64,000 bases of DNA, taken from positions 182,431 through 246,430 of the forward strand of contig JBBDPM010000006.1 in the NCBI GenBank assembly GCA_040876345.1. Reading direction: 5' to 3'. Origin of the DNA: Candidatus Woykebacteria bacterium (lineage in GTDB: Bacteria > Patescibacteriota > Microgenomatia > Woykebacterales > RBG-16-39-9b). The position numbers and the translations under genes were made by a program. The notes under the pieces are model-generated. The model worked only from the letters and a program-made list of their open reading frames with translations, was not told the DNA's origin and made no database searches. Below, one piece after another: positions 29,153-63,165 of this stretch. Within the stretch, counting starts at the first letter, position 1, and each line of letters starts with the position of its first letter.

Positions 29153-29236
29153 GTTGCACTAATCAAGTAAGGATCGACGGAGCCACACCTGGTGAAACAC
29201 CATGCGTGGCTCCGCAGAAGTGACCTGGGGTCTGGG

Positions 29237-30710: not shown

Positions 30711-31109
30711 ACTTCCTGCCTGCCGAAACTAATTACCAGATATCCTGATAGCCAGATTCGGCAGACAAACTTAATTTTCAAAGAACGAAAGCTCTTATCT
30801 TACAGCAATGGACATTATCTGCTAAATCACCCTGGTGACTCGGCCTCAAATGCCCACGAAATAGTACCTATTATATCAGAAAATGCTGGAAAAGTCAAAT
30901 ACTATAAGTCGCTACATAACTTCGAGACCAGCGAGCTTCTTGTAGCTCAAGGAGTGATCGCAGAGCGCGAAGCGATCTATTTATCAGGTATTCTCGCGCC
31001 TTGCGCTAGCCAACTTTTGGCTAGATAAGGACTCTTATTGAAGGGCTAGTAGTGGTGGGGTGGCGCGCTTCCTCAGATGCTACGCGCCTGCCCCAAAATG
31101 ACCTCCGCC

Positions 31110-37141: not shown

Positions 37142-38311
37142 CTAGAGGTTAGTATCAACTTCTTCTTTCGAACGGGTTAATCGGCCTCGGAACATGAAGA
37201 GTATAAAAGCGACCAAAACTGCTATTCCAATAAGGCCCAAACCAAGCATCTGGGTTGTAGTTAAACCTTGTAGCGCCAGCGCCCCGGCAACTTTCACTTC
37301 AAATGTTTGTACCCCATCTTTCTGGGCAACCTTGACAATTTGAGAGATACTTTTACCTTGATAATCAACTAAAACAGCTCTTTCACCATCCTCCACGTCT
37401 TTATAATTAGCTGCCCCTTTTTCATCGGTACCAACTTCTCCATACGATACTAAAGTAACTTTAGCTCCTTCAATTGGAACTCCATCTTTGTCGACAACTT
37501 TAATCTGAACTTGATATCCGGGCACTGTAAAGCTTTGATCAGTTGATACTCCCTTATTACCAGAGCCATCCTTACTTATCACTCTGTAATGAACGGCAGT
37601 ACCAGGCTCCAAAAGCCTTTTATCAAGGGCGATGGCGTGGCTTTTCGTAAGCTTGCTACTAGCTGCAATAATGCCGTATTTACTAGTTGGTCCCCATTCA
37701 ACCGTAGAATCTGAATCTTCATTTGTCGCCCAGGCTATAGTAGCACTTGTCCGGGTAAGCTTAGTAACCTTGACGCTAGAGACTTTTGGCGCTGTTTTAT
37801 CCTGAGCTTTAGGTTTTGGCGGTGGTGGCGCAGCTTTAAAAGTGTAGGTTCCGCCTGCTACACTAGTCAAAAGGTTTGCGCCACTTCCACTACCTGCCAA
37901 ACCTGATCCAGACTTGTTGATGCTAACTGAAGCTGTACCAGAGCTAACTTTGGCTCTGAATTTAATAGTAGCAACTAAATTGCTGCCAGATTTACCAGAT
38001 CCTGACACTCCTGCAACAACATAAATCGATCCACTACCGCCCTTAGATAAATCATACAAAGTAAAAGAACCGTTCCCGAAACCAAGGAAATCCAACTTAT
38101 TAGCTGGGTAAGTTATCCTTGTCTCAATTGCGTTTACTTTGGACCCACTACTCACCCTTAAAGAAACTGTAAAATCGCTGCCTTGAGTTACTGTAGAGCT
38201 CGAGGGAGAAAGAGAAAGGCTACCAGCACCTAGAACTGGCTTTGTAACAAGGAAAGAAAAAATTCCGAGGAAAAAAATTACGGTTAGGAATCTGGACAGA
38301 ATCTTTATCAT
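37142..38311 (-). CDS. Membrane-anchored cohesin-like domain protein with FN3 domain (putative dockerin receptor / scaffoldin)
   Basis: Signal peptide, about 140-aa beta-sandwich with a cohesin-like pattern (TVSLRVSSGSKVNAIETRITYPANKLDFLGF...ATIKFRAKVSSGTASV), Pro-rich linker, FN3 (SATIAWAT...EWG...YRV), C-terminal TM anchor. Confidence 0.5.
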   Translation of the reverse strand: MIKILSRFLTVIFFLGIFSFLVTKPVLGAGSLSLSPSSSTVTQGSDFTVSLRVSSGSKVNAIETRITYPANKLDFLGFGNGSFTLYDLSKGGSGSIYVVAGVSGSGKSGSNLVATIKFRAKVSSGTASVSINKSGSGLAGSGSGANLLTSVAGGTYTFKAAPPPPKPKAQDKTAPKVSSVKVTKLTRTSATIAWATNEDSDSTVEWGPTSKYGIIAASSKLTKSHAIALDKRLLEPGTAVHYRVISKDGSGNKGVSTDQSFTVPGYQVQIKVVDKDGVPIEGAKVTLVSYGEVGTDEKGAANYKDVEDGERAVLVDYQGKSISQIVKVAQKDGVQTFEVKVAGALALQGLTTTQMLGLGLIGIAVLVAFILFMFRGRLTRSKEEVDTNL

Positions 38312-38356
38312 CTATATTAAATATAAGGTGTAGGCGCTTTACTTGTCAATTTTAAT

Positions 38357-41300
38357 TTAACTCCCCCAATTAGATAGCAGTATTGAGAGATCAAAGATAT
38401 CTACTCTACCACGTCCATCTAGGTTAGAGGCTTGATCAGTAGTTCCCCATTTGGAAAGAAGGAAGGAAAGGTCAAAGATGTTTACCTTCCCGTCACCATC
38501 TAGATCCCCTATCTTACCCTTTCTTACTCCAGTATTCGAGGTAGTCACTGTTAGGATAGACGATACACCTTGGTTAGTAGCAGCATCATAGGCTTTGGCC
38601 TGGAGGGTGTGTTTGGCATTGGTGTACTTGGTTGTGTCCCAAGAGTAGGTGTAGGAAGAGGTTGTGTCAGAGCCTACTGGTTTACCATCAATGAAAAACT
38701 CTACCTTGGCAACCCCGACGTTGTCAGAAGCAGCAGCTGATACGATCACTGTCTTAGAGACTGTTGCTCCAGAAGCTGGTGAGGTGATCGAAACAGTTGG
38801 TTTAGCGCTGTCTCCGGAAGGCGGAGGGGATACATTACTCACCGTCACAGTAACTGAGGCTGTTGCATTCATTCCAGCAGCATCTGAAGCTTTAGCTTTA
38901 AGGGTGTGGGAGCCATTAGTTAGTTTAGTGGTATCAATGCTACAGGTATATGTAGAAGTAGTGTCTGTACAGGTAGCGGTACTGGCATTGTCGATGAAGA
39001 ACTCTACCTTGGTAACACCCACATTGTCAGAAGTAGTTGCCGCCACGTTGACTGTGCTAGATACTGTGGCCCCATTGGCTGGGGAGGTGATTGAGACAGT
39101 TGGGTTAGTGGTGTCTCCAGGTGGTGGTGTGGTGCCACCTGAGGAGACAGTTAGTACTAGATTGTCAAAGTTAGTATCCCAACCATTGGAGCTCATGACC
39201 GTCACATTCGTACAGGGGGTGATCCAACCAGTCTCAATAATTGATATTGTCTTGGAAGGTACACTTACTTGTTTATCTGGATTACCAGAACACTTCAAAG
39301 TGACTGTGCTGGAAGAGCCTCCACCGTTATCAGCATCAATTGAGTCAAAAATAGCTGTTTTTAGTATTGTAAAGGAGGCTTGGGTAAGACTTGCTCCATT
39401 AAAAGAGATACTGTTGCTATTAAACTTATCAAAAGGACCCGAGAGTACCCAATTCCCTGTTCCCCAGTCGATGAGACCAGAGGGGTGCTGACCAGAAAGT
39501 GGAGGGTTTCCGGAAGAAACGGTAATGGTATTGAAATCTACGATCACTTTCTGGGGAGGGTTGTCTACTTCAACTTTTACGGCGCTACTTGTGGAGGAGT
39601 TCCCAGACCCATCCGTAGCCTTGGCCGTAAGGGTGTGATCCCCGTTAGTAACACTGGTGGAATCCCAACTTATGGTAAAGATACCGTTAGTTTGCGTGTC
39701 TGTCTCTTTGATAGGGCTACCATCTACCAAAAGCTCTACCTTGGAGACTACCGAGTCATCAGTAGCCGATACACTAACATCCACCTGTCCCCTAGCAAGA
39801 CCGTTATCTAGAGGTGAGATAATACTAACACTTGGCGGACCTAAATCTCCGGCCATTCCTGTCGGTATGAAGCCCGTGTCGTTGGTGACTAGGACTTTAT
39901 CTATCTTTGCACCAGCTTCTCTACCGATGATGTTAAGGGTGTGAGTACCCTCTGTGAGGTTTAGGGATATCTTGCTGCTAGTGTTCCCATCTTTATGATC
40001 TACCCATTGGTAGGAGCCAAAGGTAACTCCACCATTACCTACTATAATGCCAGGTTTAGTATCAACTCGTAGCCAAAAGGAGTCGCTACTTGCATTAGCG
40101 GCTAACATCCTTGTCCAAATATTGTAACTACCCGCCTCTGGAACTGAGAACTGTATTGTTGAAGAGCCAGTGTTAGTTGGCAGGGGTGGGTTAGAATTGC
40201 TGGTGCTGATCGTTATGTTAGCCGAGTTTTTGTTACCTAGCTTATCAAATGCTTGGGCCATTAAGGTGTGACTGCCATCAAAAAGCTCAGCTGTGTCTAA
40301 AGTAAATTTGTATGGAGAAGCAGCTGGAAAGGAGTGGATAATCCCATCCACGTAAAATTCTACGAGGGCAATACCAGAAGCGTCCGATGCTGAAGCTTCA
40401 ACATTTATTGTATCAGAAACCGTCGCTCCATTGGCAGGGCTGATGAAATTGACTGTTGGTGGTATAGTCTCGGGTGGGTCTTTTTCGTCAATATCGCTGG
40501 CGCTAGTACAGCCAGGGTCGGCAGGGAAATCTATCTTGCCATCAGAGTCATTATCGATAGTGTCTGAACAGGCAGGACCAAGGGGTGTAGCTGTGCTCCA
40601 GATATGGACATCAAAGAAGGTAGGCCAGATATTGCGGAATCTCACCTCCTTTACACCTTCCGGAATTGGCACCATGACCGTACCCAAATATGTTTTTGTA
40701 GCCTGCTGAAGAGTTGGGGTATGCCAGGTATTAAACCCCTCAACATCAAGAGCATATTGCGGTATCTTATCAACTTTGGCAAAACGGAGATACGAGTTTG
40801 GTGGCGAAGGTCTTTCAAAATTTACTGTGGCGCTTAGGCTTGGATCCTTAAAGATTGAATTGGCGCGGCACGTATTATCCCTTTGTTCTAAACAGCTGTG
40901 AATCACCGTAAAAGGAATCGCCGGGGAAAGACTTACGTCATCAATGTGCCAGGTATTCTCATGCATGGGCTCACACGGATCGTCTATACAAGAGCCTTTA
41001 CCACTATTGTAAGCAAGCTGCATAAATTGCACGGTTGCGTTGGTCCAGGAAAGCGCTGGAATATCATCATTGAAAAAACAGTGGTTGTATTCCGGCATAC
41101 AAAGTGAGAGATGAGTGCGGCTCATTTTCATCACAAACAAATCCCTGCGTGTGGCTGAAGGCGTGAGGAATGAATTCCATCCACTAGTGCGATTGTGCAA
41201 GACATTAACGCCTCCATTGAAAACCTTTAAATTCCAAAGACCATTTCCCAGCATTTCTATTCCAAGAGATTCTGAAGGAGGTCCTTGGTCATCAAAAAAG

Positions 41301-42049
41301 GGGTACATAAGAGTGCGGTCAAAGTCACGATGACCACTCTGGTAACCAGGGGTGAGTACTACTGCTGGCCATTCCCTATCACTGCCTCGCTCAGTGCTCA
41401 TGCGCCAGCTAAAAGTTGCTTCTCCTTGGGACCAATCAAGTAAGGCCGCTGGAGTCATAACCACAACTGGGAAGTTTTCAAACCCACCAGCAGACGTCAT
41501 AATATGGTTTCGGCAGTTAAACATCATATTTTCCCGCATATCAACCATATGGGTAGCCGGCGGCGGTCCACAATCAGAGCCGTGTTGCGCCATGATATGT
41601 CCTTCGGTCCCAAAATTATCACTATTAACATCCATTGACCAGTTTTGGCGACGGTACATTGATTCTGGCGCTGCCGGTGTTCCATCGAAGGTGTCTAGAA
41701 AGGAGTTGCCACTTGTAGCCTGGAGGACTTTGGTAGGAGATTCTCCTTGGGCTGTATTAGTAATTGTGGAAGAAACATATTTCCCTCCCGAAGCATTGGT
41801 GTCATTGCCCGCTGTCATTGGGGCTGTAAGTTGGCCGTTCTCCCCTTCTAACCAGATCTTGGAGATTACTGCTGCTCTTCCGCCAAGGTTTACTCCCTTG
41901 AAAGCAAGTAATACTGTAGCCGGAATTGCTACGAGAATTAATACGGTGGCTAGAACAACTAAGTAGTCTCTGCCTTTATATGGGGGATTAATAGATTTAC
42001 GGTAGTGTTTGAACAGATCAGTGGCTCTCATAGGTAGAGAAAACTTCAT
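38357..42049 (-). CDS. Giant surface protein (1230 aa): N-terminal anchor, unknown 500-aa domain, multiple Ig-like domains, C-terminal double dockerin repeat
   Basis: N-term MRATDLFKHYRKSINPPYKGRD plus TM; repeated Ig-like modules (TVSITSPANGATVS...VGVTKVEFFIDG...YSWDTT); C-term DLDGDGKVNIFDLSFLLSKWG...DGRGRVDIFDLSILLSNWG. Confidence 0.75.
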   Translation of the reverse strand: MKFSLPMRATDLFKHYRKSINPPYKGRDYLVVLATVLILVAIPATVLLAFKGVNLGGRAAVISKIWLEGENGQLTAPMTAGNDTNASGGKYVSSTITNTAQGESPTKVLQATSGNSFLDTFDGTPAAPESMYRRQNWSMDVNSDNFGTEGHIMAQHGSDCGPPPATHMVDMRENMMFNCRNHIMTSAGGFENFPVVVMTPAALLDWSQGEATFSWRMSTERGSDREWPAVVLTPGYQSGHRDFDRTLMYPFFDDQGPPSESLGIEMLGNGLWNLKVFNGGVNVLHNRTSGWNSFLTPSATRRDLFVMKMSRTHLSLCMPEYNHCFFNDDIPALSWTNATVQFMQLAYNSGKGSCIDDPCEPMHENTWHIDDVSLSPAIPFTVIHSCLEQRDNTCRANSIFKDPSLSATVNFERPSPPNSYLRFAKVDKIPQYALDVEGFNTWHTPTLQQATKTYLGTVMVPIPEGVKEVRFRNIWPTFFDVHIWSTATPLGPACSDTIDNDSDGKIDFPADPGCTSASDIDEKDPPETIPPTVNFISPANGATVSDTINVEASASDASGIALVEFYVDGIIHSFPAASPYKFTLDTAELFDGSHTLMAQAFDKLGNKNSANITISTSNSNPPLPTNTGSSTIQFSVPEAGSYNIWTRMLAANASSDSFWLRVDTKPGIIVGNGGVTFGSYQWVDHKDGNTSSKISLNLTEGTHTLNIIGREAGAKIDKVLVTNDTGFIPTGMAGDLGPPSVSIISPLDNGLARGQVDVSVSATDDSVVSKVELLVDGSPIKETDTQTNGIFTISWDSTSVTNGDHTLTAKATDGSGNSSTSSAVKVEVDNPPQKVIVDFNTITVSSGNPPLSGQHPSGLIDWGTGNWVLSGPFDKFNSNSISFNGASLTQASFTILKTAIFDSIDADNGGGSSSTVTLKCSGNPDKQVSVPSKTISIIETGWITPCTNVTVMSSNGWDTNFDNLVLTVSSGGTTPPPGDTTNPTVSITSPANGATVSSTVNVAATTSDNVGVTKVEFFIDNASTATCTDTTSTYTCSIDTTKLTNGSHTLKAKASDAAGMNATASVTVTVSNVSPPPSGDSAKPTVSITSPASGATVSKTVIVSAAASDNVGVAKVEFFIDGKPVGSDTTSSYTYSWDTTKYTNAKHTLQAKAYDAATNQGVSSILTVTTSNTGVRKGKIGDLDGDGKVNIFDLSFLLSKWGTTDQASNLDGRGRVDIFDLSILLSNWGS

Positions 42050-42133
42050 TGGTAACCAAAATTTATAATATTAGTAATTTGATTATCCTGTCTCCCAACA
42101 AACAAGTCAATAGTACTAAAGTACTAAATCGTG

Positions 42134-45100
42134 TTACTTACCCCATCTGGAAAGCAGAATCGATAAATCAAATATATTAACCTTTCCTTTATCATCTAGA
42201 TTGGAGTTTGGATCGCTTGTATTCCAGTCGGCAAGTAATATTGAAAGATCAAAAATATTAATCTTTGTATCTCCATTAAGATCCGCATATTTAAGTGTTC
42301 GCACAGCAACTCCTGAAGATCTGGCTGATTCATTACCGGCAGCATCATAAGCAGATACCTGATAAGTGTAAGCTGTGTAAGATTTCAGGCCGATATCAGT
42401 GTAGGAAGTACTGCTAACAGACTGTATTCTCACGTTGTTACGATAAATGTGATAGCCTTTGACTCCAACATTATCGGTTGAGGCTTTCCAAGCAATTTTA
42501 GTCTCGGAATCCGAAATAGCCTGCCCAGTAGAAACAGTTGGTACTGATGGTTTCTGGATATCTCCCACTGGTTGGTTTGAAACATTGACACTAATTTGAG
42601 CACTTCCCTCATTTGGCTTGGCATCAAAGGCCTTCACTAAAATTGTGTGGGAACCATTACCTATTATAGTTGTATCCCAACTATAAACATATGGGGAGGC
42701 GGTATCGGTAAATTTCCGAGCTCCGTCAATATTAAACTCAACTGATGAAACAGTACCTGAGTCATCAGTAGCTGTGGCTTGGATATTGACTCTATCAATA
42801 ACCGTCTGACCATTTAATGGGTTCGTTATAGTAACAACTGGCGCCGTTGTATCCTGCGGAGGTATTATTTCTTGGTAAGTTGCGGTGTAGGTAGTATTTG
42901 AAGCTAGCGTATCAATATTATGAGTAGCGGCTCCTGCGTCTGACCAACTTACAAATTGGTAGTTTTTACCTGCCAAAGTTTGGTTAGAGGCGGCGCCTAA
43001 GATACGGGTAAAGCCAACCACACTATCTGTAGAGTAAGGAGCTGTTCTTGGTTGTCCGTCTAAGGTAACCTGCAAACCGGCTGGCGAAGAATTAATTGTA
43101 ATAGTTGATTTTCGGGGAATAACGTCAACGAAGGTTGTATTTTGTAAGCCTTTAGAATCGGTTACCTTCAAGTGAACTCTGTACCACACATTAGCCGATG
43201 ACTCCCCTACCTTTGGTATTGTAAGGGAGCCTGTTTTAGTGCCGTCATTAAGGGGTGGGTCCAGAAATGGATGGGTGTGGGTGTCGTGATGAAAAACAAT
43301 TGTCCAACTGAAGGCACTAGCTGCCAGTGTCCCATCCTCCGGATCAGTACCGCTACCTGAAAAGTTGATCATTCCCCCCGCTGAATATAAAGTTTGGTCA
43401 GCTGGAGCGGTAATTGTTGCCGTTGGCGGAAGATTAGGAGTCCCGGTACCAGCGTCAAAAACAAAATTATCAAAATTAGTATCCCAACCATTGCTACTTC
43501 CAATTGTTACGGTGGTACAATTATTGTTCCAGCCAGTTTGAATTGTAGTTAATAAATTGGCGGACACGTTGCGGGTGATGGTGGTATTACCAGCGCAGCT
43601 TATTGTAATTGTGCTGTTACTTACCCCAGAAATATCAACGCTGAGAAGTCTCTTTGGGCTCACAAATGTAAAAGTAGCCGAAGTTGGCCCAGCCCCGTTG
43701 AAAGCTATACTGTTATCGGGGAAGGAAGCAAAAGCTGCCCCAACCAACCACTTATTACTTCCCCAATCAGCTATACCAGTTGGGTATTGGCCATTAAGAA
43801 TCCCGGTTGGTCGATCGTTGAAACTAATTATCCCCGCATTACCGACATTTATGCTGATCGGGCTTGAATTATTTGATACATTATTGCTATTAGTAACCGT
43901 CAGAATGGCTTGAAAAATTCCGTTTGAATTGTAAGTATGATTAGCTAAAAGGCCTGTCCCTACAGCCCCATCCCCAAAATCCCATGAATAAGTAAGGGCT
44001 AGACCATTAGGATCGGTGCTGCCTAATCCGGAAAAGCTCACCGTCAACGGAGCATTTCCCGAAGTTAGATTAGCGTTAGCTACCGCCGTTGGGGCCCCTT
44101 TTTGAATTTTGTAGACTGTTCCATCGGATATATCCAAATAATACAAAGACCCGTCTGGACCAATTTTTAGATCCACTGGATTGGAAGCGCCGGTTGCAAA
44201 ACTAGTGACCTGATTATTGGATGGCTCAAGCTTCCTGATAAAATTCTGGATGTAGTCAGCAAAGAAATAATCGCCGTCAAAATCGGCTGGAAACTGAGTC
44301 CCACGGTAAAAGGTACCCCCTGTTATCGCCGAAGACCCGCTGTGAGGGTAGGAGTAGATTGGATAAGTGAAGGCTGAATTATTGCAACTCCCTACGCCTG
44401 AGCCTTGCGGACCTTCACAGTTTGGCCAACCGTAATTTTTACCCTTTTGGATGTCATTTACCTCTTCCCAAGCCCCTGCTCCAACATCATTCAAGAATAT
44501 TTTGCCAGTGGCTGGGTCTACAGCAAAAGTAAATGGGTTACGAAGCCCATAAGCCCATATTTCACCTCGCTGACCGGATTGACCAACAAAAGGATTATCC
44601 GAAGGAATAGTCCCATCTTTATTTATCCTTAGAATTTTACCAGATAGATTGCTAAGGTCTTGGGAATTTGTGGCAACTGATCCTCCATCGCCCGCGGTTA
44701 TGTAAAGTTTCCCATCAGTACCAAAGTGAACCGCTCCAGCATTGTGATTTCCAGCATCCGAAGCGATATTATCAACCAATACTGTCTCGCTTCCAGCCTC
44801 GACAATGTCTGGGTTTGTAGCACTTGCTCGAAAACGACTGACCCTATTTTTCACCGGGCTAGAGCGTGTGTAATATACATATATATAGCGATTGTTTTGA
44901 AAATCAGGGTCAAAAGCTATACCAAGCAGTCCCCTTTCGGAAACTGTATTAACCGAGACTGTCAAAAACGGGGTTGAGAGTAAGTTACCATTTTTAATAA
45001 CCCGCAAGCTTCCCCCTTTTTCAGAAACAAAAAGCCTGCCATCTGGTGCAAACTCCATGGCAGTCGGGATTGACAAACCAGATACTAGAGGAGTTTCAGC

Positions 45101-45286
45101 ATAACCGGAAGGAACTGTGGTCGCTGCTTGAGGAGATTTTATTGGGTCCTCGCTTTTTAAAGCAAGTCGGACTGTTAAAGGTATCGCGACAATAAGTAAA
45201 ATAAGTGCAAGCAAGGATACAACGTGCGAGGGTTTCTTGTGATTGAATTTTTTTATCACGGCAGGCATATTATCCAAATTTACCAA
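42134..45286 (-). CDS. PQQ-dependent sugar (glucose/sorbosone) dehydrogenase-family beta-propeller protein with PKD, Ig-like, FN3 domains and C-terminal dockerin
   Basis: GSDH-family motifs GLLGIAFDPDF, HNAGAVHFGTDGKLYIT, GLRNPF, NYGWP; PKD WDFGDG; FN3; C-term DLNGDTKINIFDLSILLADW...KGKVNIFDLSILLSRWG. Confidence 0.75.
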   Translation of the reverse strand: MVNLDNMPAVIKKFNHKKPSHVVSLLALILLIVAIPLTVRLALKSEDPIKSPQAATTVPSGYAETPLVSGLSIPTAMEFAPDGRLFVSEKGGSLRVIKNGNLLSTPFLTVSVNTVSERGLLGIAFDPDFQNNRYIYVYYTRSSPVKNRVSRFRASATNPDIVEAGSETVLVDNIASDAGNHNAGAVHFGTDGKLYITAGDGGSVATNSQDLSNLSGKILRINKDGTIPSDNPFVGQSGQRGEIWAYGLRNPFTFAVDPATGKIFLNDVGAGAWEEVNDIQKGKNYGWPNCEGPQGSGVGSCNNSAFTYPIYSYPHSGSSAITGGTFYRGTQFPADFDGDYFFADYIQNFIRKLEPSNNQVTSFATGASNPVDLKIGPDGSLYYLDISDGTVYKIQKGAPTAVANANLTSGNAPLTVSFSGLGSTDPNGLALTYSWDFGDGAVGTGLLANHTYNSNGIFQAILTVTNSNNVSNNSSPISINVGNAGIISFNDRPTGILNGQYPTGIADWGSNKWLVGAAFASFPDNSIAFNGAGPTSATFTFVSPKRLLSVDISGVSNSTITISCAGNTTITRNVSANLLTTIQTGWNNNCTTVTIGSSNGWDTNFDNFVFDAGTGTPNLPPTATITAPADQTLYSAGGMINFSGSGTDPEDGTLAASAFSWTIVFHHDTHTHPFLDPPLNDGTKTGSLTIPKVGESSANVWYRVHLKVTDSKGLQNTTFVDVIPRKSTITINSSPAGLQVTLDGQPRTAPYSTDSVVGFTRILGAASNQTLAGKNYQFVSWSDAGAATHNIDTLASNTTYTATYQEIIPPQDTTAPVVTITNPLNGQTVIDRVNIQATATDDSGTVSSVEFNIDGARKFTDTASPYVYSWDTTIIGNGSHTILVKAFDAKPNEGSAQISVNVSNQPVGDIQKPSVPTVSTGQAISDSETKIAWKASTDNVGVKGYHIYRNNVRIQSVSSTSYTDIGLKSYTAYTYQVSAYDAAGNESARSSGVAVRTLKYADLNGDTKINIFDLSILLADWNTSDPNSNLDDKGKVNIFDLSILLSRWGK

Positions 45287-45316
45287 CCTTGGCCATTCCT
45301 AAAAATTTAGACAAAA

Positions 45317-47410
45317 CTAACCCCAATTAGATAAAAGTATAGATAAATCAAATATATCAACTTTTTCTTCATCATTCAAGTTGGAGGCGGAATCTGTTGT
45401 TGCCCATTTTGAGAGTAAAATAGACAGATCAAAGATATTTACTTTTCCATCAATATTAATATCTCCTTTCCTTCCGACTCTTACAGCCACGCTATCCGAA
45501 TCTGATCCACCGGATCCAGAGCAAGTTAACGAAAAAGTTTTGTTGGATTTAATCCTACTGATTACAGCTGAACCATTAGCAGCCTTGCTGCCTGACCAAC
45601 CACCAGAAGCAGCGCAAGATGAGGCACCAGATGAGGACCAAGATAAAGTAGCTGAAGTGTTGTAAATTATAGTAACTGGGCCGTTTGAACCGTTTGCTTT
45701 TATGTCAACTGAGGGTGGTGTTGGTGTCCCAACATCATTGGAAACAAAAACAGTTATGATGGTTGACTCTCCGATGTTAGGGACTGCGTCGTGAGCTTTC
45801 GCTTGCAAGGTGTGGGAACCGTTGCTAACACTTTTTGTATCCCAACTAAAAGAATAAGGATCGAGCGAAGTATCCGTTGATTTTAAAGCTCCATCGACAT
45901 AAAACTCCACTTTCGTGACGCCGATGTTATCGGATGCTGTAGCTATTACGGAAACAGTATTTGATACCGTTTGGTTTTGTGGGGGTGATTGTATAGAAAC
46001 CGACGGCTTTTCTGTGTCTGGTATAGGGTTGTTTACATTAACAGAAACTGTTTGGGAAGCTTGGTTGTTAGCTGCGTCATACGCTTTCGTAGCTACTGTG
46101 TGGTTACCATTAGTTACACTTCGACTATCCCAACTGCATGTATACGGAGCGGTCGTGTCTGTGCAGAGAGCTGCTCCGCTGTTATCTAAATAAAACTCCA
46201 CTCTTGTCACCCCAACGTTGTCGGTTGCGGTAGTGGAAATATTCACTGTACCCGAAACAGTTGTCCCATTTGTTGGAGAGGTTATTGTTAGCTGAGGTAG
46301 TTCTGCATCGCCAGGCGGTGCAGCAGTTCTAGGACCAATATCGCTTTTCCCTTGGGCGAAAGTTTTTGCGGCTGCAAGATCAATTTGCAACCGATCGCCA
46401 GTGTGATCGTAAAAGAGCGACCAGGCAAATCCCCCAGCATAACCTTTATTGTACCAATCTGTGAAACGCTGCAAGGGGTTTGCATCAGATCCTGCATAAA
46501 ACTCCCCAATCACCAGTGGTGCATCAAGATTATATCTTGCCTTAACCGTATTATAATCTGTACAACGCGCGCACCAATTACCACTACTCATATAATCGTA
46601 CCAGTGGGCTGTGTAGTAATCCAACCCTTGCCCAACCCAAAAGGGCAATCCGTCCAAATGGGCAGAGCCAACCGAAACGTAGGCGTTCGAATTTGCGTGG
46701 ACCGAAGCGGCCACTTCTCGAACTAATGCCTGAGTTCCGGCTCTGTCAACTGTATTGTTCCACATATCCCACTCTGGTTCATTAAATATCTGCCAGGTAA
46801 GTACCCTAGGGTTGTTTCGATAACGACTAAACAACTGACCCAAGACGCTCGCAAGTTGAGCGCGTTGAGTAGAATTGTTTATCCAAGAACTTGGGATGTG
46901 GCTGGGTGCAGAAAAAAGAGTAAAAACATAGTACATATCGTGCTTTTCGGCTAGCTCTAGAGCAGAATCAAAATCCTGATAAATTGCGCTGTTTAATCCG
47001 GTTGGGGCACCAGAAGCATCTTTAGTAATCTGCCAAGGGTCTCCTGGAAACACCCACCAACGGGCAACGTGCATACCGGAGTCTTTTGCCTGTACGAACC
47101 GGCTGTCAATGTCGTTATTCACGCTGGTACTACTCACGCCACTTCCTGTACCACATCCAAAATCACAACCCCAGTTGTACCAAGGCATATTAAATCCGTG
47201 TAAATACCAGTCTCCACCCTGCCAGGGAACACGAGTCCCAGGAGGAACTGCCGCTTTGCTCTTTAACCTCAATCCTTGACCAACCAAAACGACCGTTAAT
47301 GGTATTGAGAACAAAACAAAAATTGTAACCAAAATTATTAGGGTGTCTCTTCGATTGTACGGAGGATTAATGGACTTGCGGTATTGTTTGAATAAATCAG
47401 TAGCTCTCAT
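45317..47410 (-). CDS. Glycoside hydrolase family 5-like enzyme with two Ig-like domains and C-terminal dockerin
   Basis: N-term anchor MRATDLFKQYRKSINPPYNRRD; GH5 acid/base motif LTWQIFNEPE and nucleophile region VIGEFY; C-term GDINIDGKVNIFDLSILLSKW...EKVDIFDLSILLSNWG. Confidence 0.7.
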   Translation of the reverse strand: MRATDLFKQYRKSINPPYNRRDTLIILVTIFVLFSIPLTVVLVGQGLRLKSKAAVPPGTRVPWQGGDWYLHGFNMPWYNWGCDFGCGTGSGVSSTSVNNDIDSRFVQAKDSGMHVARWWVFPGDPWQITKDASGAPTGLNSAIYQDFDSALELAEKHDMYYVFTLFSAPSHIPSSWINNSTQRAQLASVLGQLFSRYRNNPRVLTWQIFNEPEWDMWNNTVDRAGTQALVREVAASVHANSNAYVSVGSAHLDGLPFWVGQGLDYYTAHWYDYMSSGNWCARCTDYNTVKARYNLDAPLVIGEFYAGSDANPLQRFTDWYNKGYAGGFAWSLFYDHTGDRLQIDLAAAKTFAQGKSDIGPRTAAPPGDAELPQLTITSPTNGTTVSGTVNISTTATDNVGVTRVEFYLDNSGAALCTDTTAPYTCSWDSRSVTNGNHTVATKAYDAANNQASQTVSVNVNNPIPDTEKPSVSIQSPPQNQTVSNTVSVIATASDNIGVTKVEFYVDGALKSTDTSLDPYSFSWDTKSVSNGSHTLQAKAHDAVPNIGESTIITVFVSNDVGTPTPPSVDIKANGSNGPVTIIYNTSATLSWSSSGASSCAASGGWSGSKAANGSAVISRIKSNKTFSLTCSGSGGSDSDSVAVRVGRKGDINIDGKVNIFDLSILLSKWATTDSASNLNDEEKVDIFDLSILLSNWG

Positions 47411-47466
47411 TTGGCAGGATGTAACTAAATTATGACTTTAGTGATTAGCTTGTGTCAACGAATAGT

Positions 47467-50400
47467 TTACTTGGTATTGATAACAAGCTTAGGAGAAAAG
47501 CTAGATCCTGACTCTTTAGATGAATAAACAACCCCATCGGAGCTAGTCGAAGCTATAGCTAAACTCAATACCCCATCCCCCTTAACTACATTGGTTAGAT
47601 TTATCGAATAGGTCTTGGCGCACGATACCTTGCCTAAGGAAGCTACTTTACTTCCTGTAGAAGGAGCTGTATTCCAGGTAATTGTTTCTTCTTCCCAATT
47701 ACCCGCTTTGTAAAAGGCACCACCTATTGGGCCGGGGTTGGTACAATAGAGTCTAAGATAGGCTGAAGTGATTGGTCTCCCCACTACCCCCAACACCTGA
47801 AATTTAAGTAAAGAGTTTCTTCTTGGAGCGTAGTCCACCACCAAGGATTTACTGGATCCATAACTAGTGTTGGGGTAGGATTTGGCTATTGTGGCATCAT
47901 CTACTGGGGTAAAGGTGAGGGTTTTTGAGTAATTAATCACAGTGGTATAAATCTGGGAGTTGTCAAAATTACCTCCTGAATCATAAGCTTTTATTAATAA
48001 ACCATAAGTTTTATTGCTGTCTAAAGTAGTATTCCAAGAATAAGAGTAAGGAGAAGCTGTGTCGATTGCCTTTAAAACCCCATCGACATAAAATTCTACT
48101 TTCGTAACCCCAGTATTATCGATAGCACTTGCAGCTACCGCAACTGTCCCAGAAACTGTTCCTCCATCGGATGGTGACGTAACAGAAACAGTCGGACTCT
48201 CTGTGTCTTGGGGTGTGATTGGCCGCTTATAGATAAGCACTCTTCCCCGATTTAAATCCGCTACATAAAGATTGTCATTTTCATCAAAAGTGGCTGAAAA
48301 CGCCATCGAGTAGAAATCCTTTAGGGATCCGTCAGGAGCGGTAGATGCGCCTAAAGGATCACGATAGATCCCTACAAACCGATGGTTTGGCGAACCAATA
48401 CTACCAGCGTGATAGGCGTTGTATCCTACTACCATTTGATTTTTCGAATCAAACGCTGGTTTCCAGGTAGCAACGTCTGGAAATATTTTCGATGCTGCAA
48501 CCGCAAAGAGAACACTTGTATTATTGGTCGGGAAAAGATCCTTGTTGAACACAAGGAGCCGGAAGTTTCCCTGTACTTCTAACGAGTGATCGGAGACAAA
48601 TAAATTACCGAGTCGGTCTAAGGCCAAAGCCCCTGGAGATCCTAGTGTTGTAGCACTTGGGCTACCACTCTGATTTGGTTGTTTGCCAGTAATGCTAGTT
48701 TGACCCAAAACCACATCCACTAAGGGGTTGGTCAGCGGATTGCGAATCCGTAACACCCGATGGTTATCGGTATCCGACACCCAAAGGAACTCACTACCAT
48801 CTGTCGCGGCAATTCCCCAGATGATTCCAAGTGATACAGTTCCACCACCCAACACTGGAAGAGTGGTAAACGTTCCACCAGGACTGCTGCCAATTACTTT
48901 CAAAGGTTGGGCTTTATTTGTCAGTGGCATCTGGTATGCAAAGATCTTTCCAAGAGCAGCATACAGACGATGATTAGCATCTGCTGTCATCACCGGGTTC
49001 CAACCATTAACCTTATCGCTGAAGCTATTAATTGAAAAACCCGGGTAGCCAATAAAACCATCGGCGTCTTTCCCATTAGTCAAGCTAATAGGATTATTCC
49101 AGTATAATATCCGTCCATCTCCACCAACAATAAGCTGATTGTCTGACGCGACTACTCCGGTAACCTGAGCACCAAGATCACTCGGGCCCATTAAATTTCC
49201 ACTATTGGAGTTGGTCCCAAAAAACTGCTTGGAAGGATATCGAATTCGTCCTGCGTCGATATCTTGCTTAAGGTAAACAGCGTAATCATAACCTGGAGCT
49301 GTCGCGATAATATTACCCGCAGTGTCAATTCCAATCGACCCCGTCGTATCTCCAAGAACATTACCGTCTCCTCTCACACCCAGCTCTAAAATTCGGCTCT
49401 GGGTATCTTCGTCCCAAAGCTCGAGAACATGAGCACCTTTGTTTGCGACCCATACCTTCCCTGGTCTTGTAGGATCGAAATCAATACCATGCGGAATTGA
49501 AAATCCAGAACCAAAAATTTCGCCATTCATGCCGTTTGTAAATGGTGCCTTAAACCTCATCACGCGACTGTTGCCCTCATCAGTAACATAGACCGAGCCG
49601 CTGCTATTTACTCTGACCACACTAGGGGTGGAGAGCCGATTCAACCCACTACCGGCACTTCGAGAGGTAAAGCCAGATTGCCCCAAAACTAAATCAGCTG
49701 TATTGGAACCAGCCGGAAATCGCAGTACCCGATGATTACCACTATCGGCTATCCAAACATTTCCAGTAGCATCAACATCAACTCCGGCTAAAAAGGCATT
49801 AACGCAGCAGGGGTCGAAACGCAGACTAGTAGAATCAGGTGATGAGGCACCTTTGTTTGGTTGGTTTCCAGTAAAATCGCTTTGCCCCCAAACGTCATCA
49901 GCTACCGTATCAGTTTCAAAGGGCCGGATATATTTTAAGACGCGGTGGTTAAAATAATCAGTGACATAAAGATTCCCAACTAAATCCACCGCCATGCTCG
50001 CTCCCATTATTGATTCCTGTATACTAATCGAAGACTCATTTAGTGAGCACAGGCTTGAAGCACTAGCTGCCGCTCTAACCGGGTGGTTCTGAAAGGCTGA
50101 ATCTCCATTACAGGCCGACGAATTCATGTTTGGCTGCCCTATAACGAGAGAGGGTGTGCAGTTAAGGGGGTTTGTGGTTGAAGCAATACACTGATCCCAG
50201 CTAAATCCCAAAATACGGCTGTTGCCGGCATCGAATACATAAAGCCTTTGGGAGCTTGAAGTCCGATCAATTATTGCACCGTGGGGGTTAAATAGTTTGT
50301 TCGGTACAACCTTATTGGGTGTAATTTCCGAAAAATCAGGCTGCCCAACAATCACATCTGGCCACTCATCCCCTACTATACCCCGAGGAGCTAGACTAGA

Positions 50401-50568
50401 CTGGGCTTGGGCGTATTCTATTGACTCTTTAACTTGAAAAATTGAAAAAGTCAGTGGTATTGCAAGAATTGTTAATAATGCACAGAATACGATTATAACA
50501 TCTTTTTTTCTATAAGGAGAAGTTATAGCTTCACGGCATTTTTTAATGCGGCGGTTTAATTTTTCCAT
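47467..50568 (-). CDS. NHL-repeat beta-propeller surface protein with Ig-like domains (1033 aa)
   Basis: Repeated NHRVL motifs (NHRVLKY, NHRVLRF, NHRVLRI); Ig-like module (PTVSVTSPSDGGTVSGTVAVAASAIDNTGVTKVEFYVDG); same N-terminal anchor architecture; no dockerin. Confidence 0.7.
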   Translation of the reverse strand: MEKLNRRIKKCREAITSPYRKKDVIIVFCALLTILAIPLTFSIFQVKESIEYAQAQSSLAPRGIVGDEWPDVIVGQPDFSEITPNKVVPNKLFNPHGAIIDRTSSSQRLYVFDAGNSRILGFSWDQCIASTTNPLNCTPSLVIGQPNMNSSACNGDSAFQNHPVRAAASASSLCSLNESSISIQESIMGASMAVDLVGNLYVTDYFNHRVLKYIRPFETDTVADDVWGQSDFTGNQPNKGASSPDSTSLRFDPCCVNAFLAGVDVDATGNVWIADSGNHRVLRFPAGSNTADLVLGQSGFTSRSAGSGLNRLSTPSVVRVNSSGSVYVTDEGNSRVMRFKAPFTNGMNGEIFGSGFSIPHGIDFDPTRPGKVWVANKGAHVLELWDEDTQSRILELGVRGDGNVLGDTTGSIGIDTAGNIIATAPGYDYAVYLKQDIDAGRIRYPSKQFFGTNSNSGNLMGPSDLGAQVTGVVASDNQLIVGGDGRILYWNNPISLTNGKDADGFIGYPGFSINSFSDKVNGWNPVMTADANHRLYAALGKIFAYQMPLTNKAQPLKVIGSSPGGTFTTLPVLGGGTVSLGIIWGIAATDGSEFLWVSDTDNHRVLRIRNPLTNPLVDVVLGQTSITGKQPNQSGSPSATTLGSPGALALDRLGNLFVSDHSLEVQGNFRLLVFNKDLFPTNNTSVLFAVAASKIFPDVATWKPAFDSKNQMVVGYNAYHAGSIGSPNHRFVGIYRDPLGASTAPDGSLKDFYSMAFSATFDENDNLYVADLNRGRVLIYKRPITPQDTESPTVSVTSPSDGGTVSGTVAVAASAIDNTGVTKVEFYVDGVLKAIDTASPYSYSWNTTLDSNKTYGLLIKAYDSGGNFDNSQIYTTVINYSKTLTFTPVDDATIAKSYPNTSYGSSKSLVVDYAPRRNSLLKFQVLGVVGRPITSAYLRLYCTNPGPIGGAFYKAGNWEEETITWNTAPSTGSKVASLGKVSCAKTYSINLTNVVKGDGVLSLAIASTSSDGVVYSSKESGSSFSPKLVINTK

Positions 50569-50631
50569 AGGCAGGAATTAATTAAATTATGGGTTTGTTA
50601 GGTACAAATGTCAAATTATGAAAAATTTACT

Positions 50632-63164: not shown

Positions 63165-63165
63165 C

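What the first reader, a model, noticed from the sequence alone, without database searches (positions are those of the whole stretch)
37142..50568. 13.4-kb operon of giant surface proteins forming a putative cohesin-dockerin display system
Five co-directional minus-strand genes. Three different catalytic or binding modules each end in a duplicated dockerin-type Ca-binding repeat (D-x-[DN]-x-D-G-K-[VI]-N-I-F-D-L-S-[IF]-L-L-S-x-W twice): a PQQ-type sugar dehydrogenase propeller, a GH5-like glycosidase, and a multi-Ig protein of unknown function. The last gene (37142..38311) encodes a membrane-anchored protein whose N-terminal beta-sandwich resembles a cohesin. An NHL-propeller protein leads the operon. 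A compact, self-contained cellulosome-like module of this kind would be unusual in a small AT-rich (likely CPR) genome, and its substrate is unknown.
Basis: partly seen in the sequence, partly recalled or inferred. Interest (0 to 1): 0.7.

Follow-up and report, generated by a model that had tools for sequence, protein, structure and literature searches.

The report
Cohesin–dockerin enzyme tether in a CPR bacterium
A tiny-genome (CPR, Candidatus Woykebacteria) bacterium encodes a membrane-anchored protein with a cohesin "socket" next to three secreted enzymes that each end in a dockerin "plug"; the same pairing recurs across many relatives with different enzymes, so it most likely holds secreted degradative enzymes on the cell surface.

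Summary
Five co-directional minus-strand genes occupy 37142-50568. Three end in a duplicated dockerin-like repeat, found nowhere else in the window. The last gene encodes a signal peptide, an N-terminal beta-sandwich, two spacer domains and a C-terminal TM helix.

The strongest evidence is context. In 54 GTDB loci, 21 of 28 cohesin loci have a dockerin ORF, usually within 80 nt; 0 of 26 control loci do (p = 2e-9). Cargo varies: proteases, GH5, beta-helix enzymes. Some Saccharimonadales loci encode Coh+Doc adaptors and two-cohesin proteins.

Corrections:
- At least four promoter-like units, not a proven operon.
- The proteins are 389-1230 aa, not giant, and GC is about 44%.
- One cohesin makes this an anchor, not a cellulosome.
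- The module is widespread in Patescibacteria, not unusual.

The unknown head is a ConA-like jelly roll. A conserved 'INPPY' leader marks this secretome. Binding itself is untested. This is a new variant of a known kind.

The parts
37142..38311 (-). Anchor protein (389 aa): Sec signal peptide, cohesin, Pro-rich linker, fn3-like domain, CarboxypepD_reg-like (prealbumin-like) domain, C-terminal TM helix and a basic cytoplasmic tail.
   Evidence: ORF. Pfam: Cohesin 23.2 bits (GA 24.1), Pur_ac_phosph_N and CarboxypepD_reg. The same architecture is conserved in orthologs P0002-P0009. It is 100% identical to an NCBI Candidatus Woykebacteria hypothetical protein.
37832..38227 (-). Cohesin module (about residues 29-160 of the anchor protein); type-I-like, all-beta, no helices.
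37190..37249 (-). C-terminal transmembrane helix (MLGLGLIGIAVLVAFILFMF) followed by RGRLTRSK, which gives an N-out/C-in type I anchor.
   Evidence: Read directly from the sequence. A hydrophobic stretch followed by basic residues is conserved at the same place in the orthologs. No TM predictor was run.
38357..42049 (-). Cargo 1 (1230 aa): INPPY leader, ConA-like jelly-roll head, acidic double-disulfide repeat, four Big_7 Ig domains, C-terminal dockerin.
   Evidence: Pfam Big_7 at E 3e-77. Local dockerin HMM at E 5e-31.
40565..41707 (-). Head of cargo 1 (about residues 115-495): beta-jelly roll of the concanavalin A-like lectin/glucanase type. There is no Pfam model and the function is unknown.
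38360..38530 (-). Dockerin of cargo 1 (last 57 aa).
   Evidence: Pfam Dockerin_1 at 22.3 bits against a GA of 22.9, E 1.5e-4. The tail profile hits solved dockerins at E 5e-8 to 1e-3.
42134..45286 (-). Cargo 2 (1050 aa): leader variant, GSDH beta-propeller (PQQ-type aldose sugar dehydrogenase family), PKD, Big_7, fn3, C-terminal dockerin (42137-42304).
   Evidence: PF07995 at E 4e-68, PKD_4, Big_7 and fn3. PDB 2ism at E 2e-41 and 2g8s at E 2e-39. The dockerin tail scores 23.2 bits against a GA of 22.9.
45317..47410 (-). Cargo 3 (697 aa): INPPY leader, GH5 beta-mannanase-like (beta/alpha)8 head (46388-47242), two Big_7 domains, an Ig-like spacer, C-terminal dockerin (45320-45484).
   Evidence: PDB phmmer: 2c0h at E 5e-12, 4oou at 4e-10 and 3vup at 8e-9, with FNEPE and VIGEF aligned to the catalytic motifs. 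Big_7 at E 5e-44. The dockerin tail scores 22.6 bits.
47467..50568 (-). Leading gene (1033 aa): same leader family, NHL beta-propeller, Big_7, C-terminal CBM96/DNRLRE. It has no dockerin, so it is secreted with the others but not docked.
   Evidence: NHL at E 1.5e-25, CBM96 at 7e-30, DNRLRE at 8e-21. No dockerin HMM hit.
50586..50614 (-). Promoter-like site TTGACA-17-CATAAT upstream of gene 5.
   Evidence: 11 of 12 matches; sequence shown.
47429..47458 (-). Promoter-like site TTGACA-18-CATAAT upstream of gene 4. It shares a TCCTGCC element just before the ATG with the gene 5 leader.
   Evidence: 11 of 12 matches.
42082..42110 (-). Promoter-like site TTGACT-17-GATAAT upstream of gene 2.
   Evidence: 10 of 12 matches.
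38320..38349 (-). Promoter-like site TTGACA-18-TATATT upstream of the anchor gene.
   Evidence: 11 of 12 matches.

Best explanation
This is a non-cellulosomal cohesin-dockerin surface-tethering module.

The 389-aa protein is exported by an ordinary Sec signal and stays in the membrane through its C-terminal helix, with the N-terminus outside. It holds one type-I-like cohesin away from the membrane on a stalk made of a Pro-rich linker, an fn3-like domain and a prealbumin-like domain.

Three secreted enzymes are exported through a lineage-specific 'INPPY' leader: a GH5 beta-mannanase-like glycosidase, a PQQ-type sugar dehydrogenase and a ConA-like lectin or lyase-type protein. They are probably released by signal peptidase at a conserved (S/G)-(R/K)-A site. 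They are then recaptured non-covalently when their C-terminal dockerin binds the cohesin.

All three dockerins carry the same putative recognition residues (I-F at positions 10-11, L-S at 17-18). They would therefore compete for the single cohesin, giving a mixed, exchangeable enzyme coat.

The likely purpose is to keep polysaccharide- and, in relatives, protein-degrading enzymes on an ultra-small cell, so that their products are captured by that cell or the enzymes act on whatever the cell adheres to.

Shown here: the folds, family membership by profile, exclusivity of the motif, and conserved adjacency across many genomes. Inferred: physical binding, Ca dependence, leader cleavage, substrates and surface location.
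For: - Cohesin fold and family.
- Dockerin family: all nine tails aligned hit Dockerin_1 (best E 2.3e-10). The tail profile's top PDB hits are solved dockerins, with some alignments spanning both repeats. The window tails score 22.3, 23.2 and 22.6 bits against a GA of 22.9.
- Exclusivity: the window holds exactly one cohesin and three dockerins, all in this cluster.
- Orthologs of the anchor sit immediately downstream of Big_7+dockerin proteins with different heads in L001/L002, L003, L004/L005 and L006. L006 also keeps guaA downstream, as in the window.
- In 54 GTDB loci the counts are 21 with both a cohesin and a dockerin, 7 cohesin only, 0 dockerin only and 26 neither (Fisher p 2.4e-9). The partner ORF lies within 80 nt in 19 of 21, is on the same strand in 17 of 21, and 30 of 33 dockerins are C-terminal.
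- Seven loci encode Coh+Doc proteins and three encode two-cohesin proteins. That is the logic of hierarchical cohesin-dockerin assembly.
- The cargo heads that can be classified are mostly extracellular degradative or glycan-binding modules: S8, M10, reprolysin-like, GH5, beta-helix, CBM6/35 and F5/8C.
- Of the long proteins carrying the INPPY leader, 47 of 92 end in a dockerin. Of the 150 leader proteins listed, 15 contain a cohesin.
Against: - No binding evidence of any kind. A pseudo-complex model could not be run.
- The window's own modules are borderline on curated thresholds: Cohesin 23.2 vs 24.1 bits, and two of three dockerin tails just under 22.9.
- The second Ca-binding loop of all three window dockerins has R, K or E at position 5 and N at position 1. 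One Ca site may therefore be weak or lost. Relatives have S or D there.
- The leader's hydrophobic stretch is about 22 residues long, like a TM helix. The enzymes might therefore stay N-terminally anchored, which would make dockerin-based retention partly redundant.
- Only 64 kb of a contig of at least 586 kb was seen, so other cohesins or dockerins may exist elsewhere.
- Seven of 28 cohesin loci showed no dockerin, although at least two of these (L008, L011) have the cohesin at or near a contig end.
- The control loci include non-CPR genomes, and the dockerin HMM was trained on CPR tails.
Confidence: 0.75

Rival explanations
1. The modules are genuine, but the pairing differs. The dockerins bind a different cohesin encoded elsewhere in the genome or on a host or partner cell. 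Alternatively, the anchor's cohesin binds a different ligand, and the adjacency reflects only co-regulation of surface proteins.
For: Only 64 kb of a contig of at least 586 kb was examined. Relatives encode several distinct cohesin proteins per locus, including adaptors and two-cohesin proteins, so specificities may be partitioned. Seven of 28 cohesin loci lack a nearby dockerin.
Against: The partner ORF lies within 80 nt in 19 of 21 loci, across very divergent genomes and with constantly changing cargo heads. This is hard to explain unless the adjacent pair interacts. In the window the ratio is 1 cohesin to 3 dockerins with identical putative recognition residues.
Confidence: 0.12
2. The enzymes remain membrane-anchored by an uncleaved INPPY leader acting as a type II signal anchor. 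The cohesin-dockerin contact then works in cis on the membrane, organising or orienting already tethered enzymes into clusters rather than retaining released ones.
For: The leader's hydrophobic segment is about 22 residues long and contains a conserved IPLT motif. That is longer than the roughly 15-residue h-region of the anchor protein's own signal peptide. No cleavage has been demonstrated.
Against: A conserved Q-(A/S)-R-E-P-x-(S/G)-(R/K)-A motif follows the helix and ends in a signal-peptidase-I-like small-x-Ala site. The cargo proteins carry long Ig/fn3 spacers before the dockerin, as expected if the C-terminus is the attachment point.
Confidence: 0.15
3. There is no cohesin-dockerin interaction. 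The C-terminal repeats are generic EF-hand-like Ca-binding stabilisers or cell-wall/glycan-binding tails. The N-domain is a generic Ig-like adhesin domain that happens to share the cohesin fold.
Confidence: 0.07

Closest known systems
Single-cohesin anchoring proteins of the Clostridium (Acetivibrio) thermocellum cellulosome system (OlpA, OlpC; type I cohesin-dockerin; PDB 3ul4, 4dh2)
   Different: - Anchoring is by a C-terminal TM helix rather than SLH repeats. That these clostridial anchors use SLH is from my own knowledge and PMC9012536.
- The stalk is made of fn3-like and prealbumin-like domains.
- The cargo is not cellulases.
- The dockerin is compact, about 50 aa with a linker of about 5 residues, and its second Ca loop is degenerate.
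- Sequence identity is only 10-22%.
Non-cellulosomal cohesin/dockerin modules (Archaeoglobus fulgidus cohesin 2xdh; survey of Peer et al. 2009; ANME archaea, PMC9012536)
   Same: Cohesin and dockerin occur outside cellulolytic organisms, with no large multi-cohesin scaffoldin in many cases and non-cellulase cargo. 2xdh is the best single-sequence PDB hit (E 0.017) and a top structural hit.
   Different: Here there is a fixed, syntenic anchor-plus-cargo module with a TM anchor. It recurs across a whole bacterial superphylum and is linked to a dedicated N-terminal leader. None of the papers found describes this.
Minimal cohesin-dockerin pair ClcC/ClcD of Cellulosilyticum lentocellum (PMC13487519)
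   Same: A highly reduced system with one cohesin protein and adjacent dockerin enzyme gene(s). Complex formation was shown experimentally there.
   Different: That system is cellulolytic, in a Firmicute, with one dockerin annotated. Here three dockerin enzymes share one membrane-anchored cohesin, and the cargo is mannanase-like, dehydrogenase or lectin-like.
Clostridium perfringens glycosidase/toxin Coh-Doc complexes (cohesins 2vo8, 2w1n, 2o4e; dockerin 2jnk/2ozn) and the Ruminococcus bromii amylosome (7urp, 9qfa)
   Different: In those systems, according to the PDB entry descriptions, the cohesins sit on the enzymes themselves or on scaffoldins. Here the cohesin is on a dedicated TM anchor with no Pfam-detectable catalytic domain.

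Membership tests
Cohesin (Pfam PF00963; type I-like) | Scores at or above the Pfam gathering threshold. | tested here: not met
   23.2 bits against a GA of 24.1, E 8.7e-5, covering profile positions 6-127 of 139. It misses by 0.9 bits.
Cohesin (Pfam PF00963; type I-like) | Homology to bona fide cohesins detectable by profile. | tested here: met
   The profile of 11 N-domains retrieves 55 proteins (E down to 1e-35), most carrying precomputed PF00963. Its best PDB hits are scaffoldin cohesins 6kgc/6kg8, aligned over the full length at E 0.012.
Cohesin (Pfam PF00963; type I-like) | Nine-stranded flattened beta-sandwich (jelly-roll) fold superposable on solved cohesins. | tested here: met
Cohesin (Pfam PF00963; type I-like) | Binds a dockerin (Ca-dependent, high affinity). 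| not testable with these tools
Only genomic adjacency supports binding.
Dockerin type I (Pfam PF00404) | Tandem duplication of a roughly 22-residue segment (12-residue Ca loop plus helix) at a protein terminus. | tested here: met
   Two segments per tail at the extreme C-terminus of three proteins. 30 of 33 dockerins in related loci are also C-terminal.
Dockerin type I (Pfam PF00404) | Ca ligands at loop positions 1, 3, 5, 9 and 12 (D/N/S). | tested here: inconclusive
   The first repeats are canonical (D-x-D/N-x-D-...-N-..-D). The second repeats have N1, D/N3, then R, K or E at position 5, D/N9 and D12. Relatives have S or D at position 5.
Dockerin type I (Pfam PF00404) | Scores at or above the Pfam gathering threshold. 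| tested here: inconclusive
   The window tails scanned alone score 22.3, 23.2 and 22.6 bits against a GA of 22.9, so one of three passes. Most relatives' tails in the same alignment family score 26-37 bits.
Dockerin type I (Pfam PF00404) | Profile homology to solved dockerins. | tested here: met
   The tail profile hits 4fl4_A at 5e-8, 2y3n_B at 1e-6 (both repeats aligned), and 1daq, 2mte, 2ccl, 1ohz and 5nrk among others. EF-hand proteins appear only at E above 0.2.
Cellulosome (multi-enzyme scaffoldin complex) | Scaffoldin with multiple cohesins that integrates several enzymes at once. | tested here: not met
   There is one cohesin in the anchor and none elsewhere in the window. Two-cohesin and Coh+Doc proteins exist only in some related Saccharimonadales loci.
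Cellulosome (multi-enzyme scaffoldin complex) | Cellulose-binding CBM on the scaffoldin, and cellulases as the main cargo. | tested here: not met
   The anchor gives no CBM hit in Pfam or NCBIfam. The cargo is mannanase-like GH5, GSDH and a ConA-like domain.
Glycoside hydrolase family 5 (clan GH-A) | Matches PF00150 or GH5 structures, and has the two catalytic Glu residues (NEP acid/base on strand 4, nucleophile on strand 7). | tested here: inconclusive
   PF00150 gives no hit at E 0.1 or better. GH5 beta-mannanases 2c0h, 4oou, 3vup and 5y6t match at E 5e-12 to 9e-9, with FNEPE and VIGEF aligned to NEPE and VIGEF of 2c0h. Activity was not tested.
GSDH / PQQ-dependent aldose sugar dehydrogenase (PF07995) | Full-length match to the six-bladed propeller family. 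| tested here: met
   PF07995 at 230 bits, covering profile positions 1-330 of 332. 2ism and 2g8s at about 1e-40. The PQQ and Ca ligands, the cofactor supply and the electron acceptor were not examined.

The most novel reading that the evidence does not exclude
Patescibacteria (CPR) as a group possess their own modular cohesin-dockerin secretome. It consists of TM-anchored single-cohesin anchors, Coh+Doc adaptors and two-cohesin scaffoldins in Saccharimonadales, and a freely exchangeable set of dockerin-tailed proteases, glycosidases and lyases. In the lineage that includes this Woykebacteria genome it is coupled to a previously undescribed N-terminal sorting signal (MRAxDL..YRxSINPPY, a TM helix containing IPLT, then REPxx[RK]A). 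This would be the surface machinery by which these ultra-small, auxotrophic cells digest the envelope or exopolymers of hosts or neighbours and capture the products.
Probability: 0.35. Interest if true: 0.75.

Novelty: new variant of a known kind. Interest (0 to 1): 0.58.

Why it matters
CPR/Patescibacteria make up a large share of bacterial diversity. They have tiny genomes and are thought to live attached to other cells, yet how their surface engages and exploits a partner or substrate is largely unknown.

A conserved, swappable cohesin-dockerin tether would give a concrete and experimentally simple handle, since two small domains can be expressed and tested for Ca-dependent binding. It would show which enzymes these cells display. 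It would extend the cohesin-dockerin principle to a TM-anchored, non-cellulolytic form in a new superphylum. It could also supply new orthogonal Coh-Doc pairs for protein engineering.

The linked INPPY leader, if it is a real sorting signal, would allow the displayed secretome of that lineage to be predicted from sequence alone. Cultivated Saccharibacteria with genetic tools now exist (PMC10633639), so the Saccharimonadales versions of the module could be tested by knockout.

Tried and rejected
- AlphaFold pseudo-complex (cohesin, GS linker, dockerin).
- The search for related loci with the 11-sequence alignment A1 failed because the alignment was too diverse. It was repeated with the 7 closest sequences, A6.
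- The first attempt to translate the cargo-1 head used the wrong frame and was redone.
- GH16-type hydrolase for that head: rejected as a membership claim, because no Glu is invariant or nearly invariant among 30 homologs. A lectin or beta-jelly-roll lyase remains possible but was not tested.
- 'One 13.4-kb operon': not supported. Promoter-like sites with 10-11 of 12 matches lie in four of the five upstream gaps, and no intergenic terminators were found.
- Link to the essential dockerin protein SEML1_0315 of Southlakia epibionticum: its neighbours are an alpha/beta hydrolase gene and a tRNA gene, not a cohesin gene, so no support came from there.
- Peer et al. 2009 (PMC3035643) is not held. 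It is cited only through PMC9012536.
- Rfam on the window found only four tRNAs and nothing in the odd high-GC stretch.
- Six literature searches found no description of a CPR cohesin-dockerin system. Only open-access papers and bioRxiv preprints were searched, so this is not proof of absence.

Full report
**What is there**

The window comes from a Candidatus Woykebacteria MAG (CPR/Patescibacteria, Microgenomates group). The 389-aa protein is 100% identical to an NCBI hypothetical protein from that taxon, on a contig of 586 kb. GC around the cluster is 42-46%, so the region is not AT-rich.

Five ORFs lie head-to-tail on the minus strand with gaps of 30-84 nt:

| Gene | Coordinates | Length |
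|---|---|---|
| 5 | 47467-50568 | 1033 aa |
| 4 | 45317-47410 | 697 aa |
| 3 | 42134-45286 | 1050 aa |
| 2 | 38357-42049 | 1230 aa |
| 1 | 37142-38311 | 389 aa |

guaA follows at 35553-37079. A PIN-like ORF and a PBP2-like gene lie upstream; I read these two from the translations and did not test them.

**Domain content**

- Gene 5: NHL repeats (E 1.5e-25), Big_7 and a C-terminal CBM96/DNRLRE domain (E 7e-30). It has no dockerin.
- Gene 4: a clan GH-A head, two Big_7 domains and a dockerin-like tail. Pfam PF00150 does not hit the head. Solved GH5 beta-mannanases do (2c0h 5e-12, 4oou 4e-10, 3vup 8e-9, 5y6t 9e-9). The motifs WQIFNEPEW and PLVIGEF align with the acid/base and nucleophile motifs of 2c0h.
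- Gene 3: a full-length GSDH propeller (PF07995, E 4e-68; PDB aldose sugar dehydrogenases 2ism and 2g8s at about 1e-40), then PKD, Big_7, fn3 and a dockerin-like tail.
- Gene 2: four Big_7 domains (E 3e-77), a dockerin-like tail and an N-terminal head of about 400 aa with no Pfam or PDB sequence match.
- Gene 1: an ordinary Sec signal (MIKILSRFLTVIFFLGIFSFLVTKPVLG/AGS), a beta-rich N-domain, a PPPPKPK linker, an fn3-like domain, a CarboxypepD_reg-like domain, a 20-residue hydrophobic helix and a basic tail (RGRLTRSK).

**The C-terminal repeat is not chance**

A six-frame regular-expression scan finds the motif six times in 64 kb. All six copies are the paired repeats at the three C-termini. 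An HMM built from nine such tails scores those three ORFs at E of about 1e-30. The next ORF in the window scores E 0.08.

**Is the N-domain a cohesin?**

- Pfam Cohesin scores 23.2 bits, 0.9 below the gathering score (E 8.7e-5).
- The best single-sequence PDB hit is the Archaeoglobus fulgidus cohesin 2xdh (E 0.017).
- A profile of the N-domains of 11 homologs aligns over its full length with the Clostridium acetobutylicum scaffoldin cohesin 6kgc/6kg8 (E 0.012).
- In the 5.8-billion-protein collection, that profile retrieves 55 proteins with E down to 1e-35, most already carrying PF00963.
- AlphaFold2 with a 48-sequence alignment gives pLDDT 94.5 and pTM 0.88, an all-beta structure.
- The top 46 Foldseek hits against PDB are all cohesins (TM about 0.8, E to 7e-11), many solved in complex with dockerins.

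The domain is therefore a cohesin by fold and by profile homology, type-I-like with no extra helices, although it narrowly misses the curated Pfam cut-off.

**Are the tails dockerins?**

- All nine aligned tails (three from the window, six from related loci) hit Pfam Dockerin_1, with a best E of 2.3e-10.
- The window tails scanned alone score 22.3, 23.2 and 22.6 bits against a cut-off of 22.9.
- Most relatives' tails score 26-37 bits.
- The tail profile's best PDB hits are solved dockerins (4fl4_A 5e-8; 2y3n_B 1e-6 with both repeats aligned; 1daq, 2mte, 2ccl, 1ohz, 5nrk and others). EF-hand proteins appear only at E above 0.2.
- Loop spacing is canonical: positions 1, 3, 5, 9 and 12 read D, D/N, D, N, D in the first repeats.
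- The second repeats of all three window dockerins read N, D/N, then R, K or E, then D/N, D. Position 5 is therefore not a ligand-type residue, and one Ca site may be weakened. Relatives have S or D there.
- The module is compact, about 50 aa with a linker of about 5 residues between the two segments.
- Positions 10-11 (I-F) and 17-18 (L-S) are the same in all six repeats. By analogy with type I dockerins (my own knowledge), these are recognition positions. This predicts a shared specificity and possibly a dual binding mode.

**Evidence from context**

This is the strongest argument for a functional pair. Orthologs of the anchor (33-52% identity, same architecture) were located on other contigs. 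In every case a Big_7+dockerin protein lies immediately upstream, each time with a different head:

| Locus | Cargo head |
|---|---|
| L001/L002 | tandem fn3-like repeats plus Big_7-like Ig domains (read from the sequence; contig-truncated at the N-terminus) |
| L003 | F5/8-type-C |
| L004/L005 | peptidase S8 |
| L006 | reprolysin-like metalloprotease |

L006 also has a second anchor paralog and guaA downstream, as in the window.

One pattern scan of the GTDB species representatives gave 54 loci. Searching their six-frame ORFs with the local cohesin and dockerin HMMs gave these results:

| Loci | Count |
|---|---|
| Cohesin and dockerin | 21 |
| Cohesin only | 7 |
| Dockerin only | 0 |
| Neither | 26 |

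- Fisher p is 2.4e-9.
- The nearest dockerin ORF is within 80 nt of the cohesin ORF in 19 of 21 loci, and on the same strand in 17 of 21.
- 30 of 33 dockerins are C-terminal.
- At least two of the cohesin-only loci (L008, L011) have the cohesin at or near a contig end.

The 26 loci with neither module matched only through the fn3 segment. They serve as a rough background. The caveat is that they include non-CPR genomes.

The cohesin-bearing loci are mostly labelled Patescibacteria or Saccharimonadales. A few are labelled Gammaproteobacteria or Nanoarchaeia, which I suspect are bin mislabels.

Seven loci encode proteins with both a cohesin and a C-terminal dockerin, and three encode proteins with two cohesins. 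These are the parts needed for hierarchical assembly. The window has the simplest version.

**What is displayed**

Across the loci the cargo heads are S8, M10, reprolysin-like and HExxH/CARDB proteases, a GH5 cellulase-family enzyme, five right-handed beta-helix proteins, a CBM6/35 protein, an F5/8C protein and a GH16-like protein with an N-terminal dockerin. The HExxH motif and the GH16-like call rest on motifs I read in the sequences.

In the window the cargo is as follows.

- The mannanase-like GH5.
- The PQQ-type sugar dehydrogenase. Its cofactor supply and electron acceptor in a CPR cell are unexplained.

Among the 30 homologs of that head, His, Cys, Arg and Tyr residues are invariant and no Glu is conserved. 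It is therefore not a GH16-type hydrolase. A lectin or a beta-jelly-roll lyase are the open options.

**Export signal (noticed in passing, relevant to mechanism)**

The four large proteins share an unusual leader, while the anchor does not:

- a basic N-region with YRKSINPPY;
- a hydrophobic helix of about 22 residues containing (A/S)IP(L/A)T;
- about 10 residues later, a small-x-Ala site.

A profile of the four window leaders finds only 151 representatives among 1.84 billion proteins, nearly all matching at the extreme N-terminus. Of the 150 listed, 130 have xNPPY. Of the 92 that are at least 300 aa long, 47 end in a dockerin. Fifteen of the 150 contain a cohesin. The consensus after the helix is Q-(A/S)-R-E-P-x-(S/G)-(R/K)-A.

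No Pfam or NCBIfam model covers this leader. I read it as a lineage-specific signal peptide cleaved by signal peptidase I after (R/K)-A. That would release the enzymes and make dockerin-mediated recapture meaningful. If it is not cleaved, the enzymes would be tethered at both ends, which is one of the rival explanations.

**Transcription**

The best sigma-70-like matches in 19 kb fall in the short gaps directly upstream of the genes:

| Upstream of | Site | Matches |
|---|---|---|
| Gene 5 | TTGACA-17-CATAAT | 11/12 |
| Gene 4 | TTGACA-18-CATAAT | 11/12 |
| Gene 1 | TTGACA-18-TATATT | 11/12 |
| Gene 2 | TTGACT-17-GATAAT | 10/12 |
| guaA | TTCCCA-17-TATAAT | 10/12 |

The gene 5 and gene 4 leaders also share TCCTGCC just before the ATG. 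Only the 30-nt gap before gene 3 lacks a promoter-like site and has an AGGA. No terminator-like hairpins lie in the gaps. The cluster is therefore better described as at least four co-directional units than as one operon. Read-through cannot be excluded.

**Mechanism proposed**

Shown: the folds, the profile homology, the exclusivity of the motif and the conserved adjacency.

Inferred:

1. The anchor inserts N-out/C-in and presents one cohesin on a stalk.
2. The three enzymes are secreted, cleaved from their leader, and captured by Ca-dependent dockerin-cohesin binding.
3. They compete for the single cohesin, giving a mixed, exchangeable coat.
4. The purpose is to keep glycan- and protein-degrading enzymes on an ultra-small cell, so that it captures the products or acts on whatever surface it adheres to.

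Confidence is about 0.75.

**Comparison with what is known**

The module works like single-cohesin anchoring proteins of clostridial cellulosomes (OlpA and OlpC, PDB 3ul4 and 4dh2, among the structural hits). It also resembles non-cellulosomal cohesin-dockerin pairs:

- Archaeoglobus fulgidus 2xdh;
- Clostridium perfringens enzyme complexes 2vo8, 2w1n and 2jnk;
- the Ruminococcus bromii amylosome;
- the minimal ClcC/ClcD pair of Cellulosilyticum lentocellum, PMC13487519;
- ANME archaea, PMC9012536.

It is not a cellulosome. It has one cohesin, no Pfam CBM hit on the anchor, no cellulase set, and a TM anchor rather than an SLH or sortase anchor.

NCBI already labels some Paceibacterota proteins as 'cohesin domain-containing', so the domains are not unknown in CPR. 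In the open-access and bioRxiv library I found no description of this syntenic module, its adaptors or the leader. The only CPR mention is an essential dockerin-domain protein in a cultivated Saccharibacterium (PMC10633639), whose neighbours are not cohesin genes.

**Verdict**

- Novelty: a new variant of a known kind.
- Interest is moderate to high. The module is widespread in a poorly understood superphylum, is easy to test, and comes with a candidate new sorting signal.

Noticed in passing
window 47231-47410, 41852-42031, 50389-50568, 45107-45286 (minus strand; N-termini of genes 4, 2, 5 and 3): The four large secreted proteins share an N-terminal leader: MRAxDL..YRxSINPPY, a helix of about 22 aa containing (A/S)IPLT, then ..REPxx(R/K)A. 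Gene 3 has a divergent copy without the NPPY motif. The profile finds only 151 representatives in 1.84 billion proteins, nearly all at the extreme N-terminus. 47 of the 92 long ones end in a dockerin, and 15 of the 150 listed contain a cohesin. No Pfam or NCBIfam model covers it. It is a candidate lineage-specific sorting signal.
   Followed up: partly
L007 8647-9933; L015 8022-9911 and 6289-7905; L016 7989-9869 and 5220-6836; L023 8092-9912; L033 3354-4982; L042 5404-6996 and 7088-8713; L044 3826-5424: Related Patescibacteria/Saccharimonadales loci encode proteins with both a cohesin and a C-terminal dockerin (adaptor-like), and proteins with two cohesins, next to TM-anchored cohesin proteins. 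These are the parts needed for a hierarchical assembly, more elaborate than in the window.
   Followed up: partly
window about 27300-31000: A stretch of 53-54% GC in a genome of about 43% GC. It has only short, overlapping, Arg/Pro/Ser-rich ORFs on both strands and no Rfam hit even at E 0.01. It may be foreign, pseudogenised or non-coding.
   Followed up: partly
window 47411-47466 and 50569-50640 (minus strand): The upstream regions of genes 4 and 5 look like copies of each other: TTGACA-17/18-CATAATTTA.TTA..TCCTGCC..ATG. The TCCTGCC element 2-4 nt before the start codon is not Shine-Dalgarno-like. The -10 elements of the anchor gene and guaA end only 8-9 nt before the ATG, which suggests very short or absent 5' leaders.
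   Followed up: no
window 38378-38425, 42155-42202, 45335-45382 (second dockerin repeats): All three window dockerins have a non-ligand residue (R, K or E) at Ca-loop position 5 of the second repeat and N at position 1. Dockerins in related loci have S or D at position 5. The change is shared by the three paralogous tails of this genome.
   Followed up: partly
window about 40500-40575 (gene 2, about residues 493-516): An acidic double-disulfide repeat (CSDTIDNDSDGKIDFPADPGC; NF033662 at E 2e-4) sits between the ConA-like head and the Ig domains. It probably explains the dozens of short, high-identity hits (about 7% coverage) to unrelated secreted proteins from many phyla in the homolog search.
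   Followed up: no
window 38000-44000: GC skew is slightly positive here (+0.03 to +0.06) and negative almost everywhere else in the window, although the genes are on the same strand. This may reflect the Thr/Ser/Gly/Asn-rich Ig-domain composition rather than foreign origin.
   Followed up: no
L009, L010, L011, L023, L024 (record titles): Contigs carrying the typical CPR anchor-plus-dockerin module are labelled 'Gammaproteobacteria' or 'Nanoarchaeia' in their MAG records. These are probably taxonomic mislabels or mis-binned contigs.
   Followed up: no
window 62894-63738: A cluster of four tRNA genes on the plus strand. These are the only Rfam gathering-level hits in the window.
   Followed up: no
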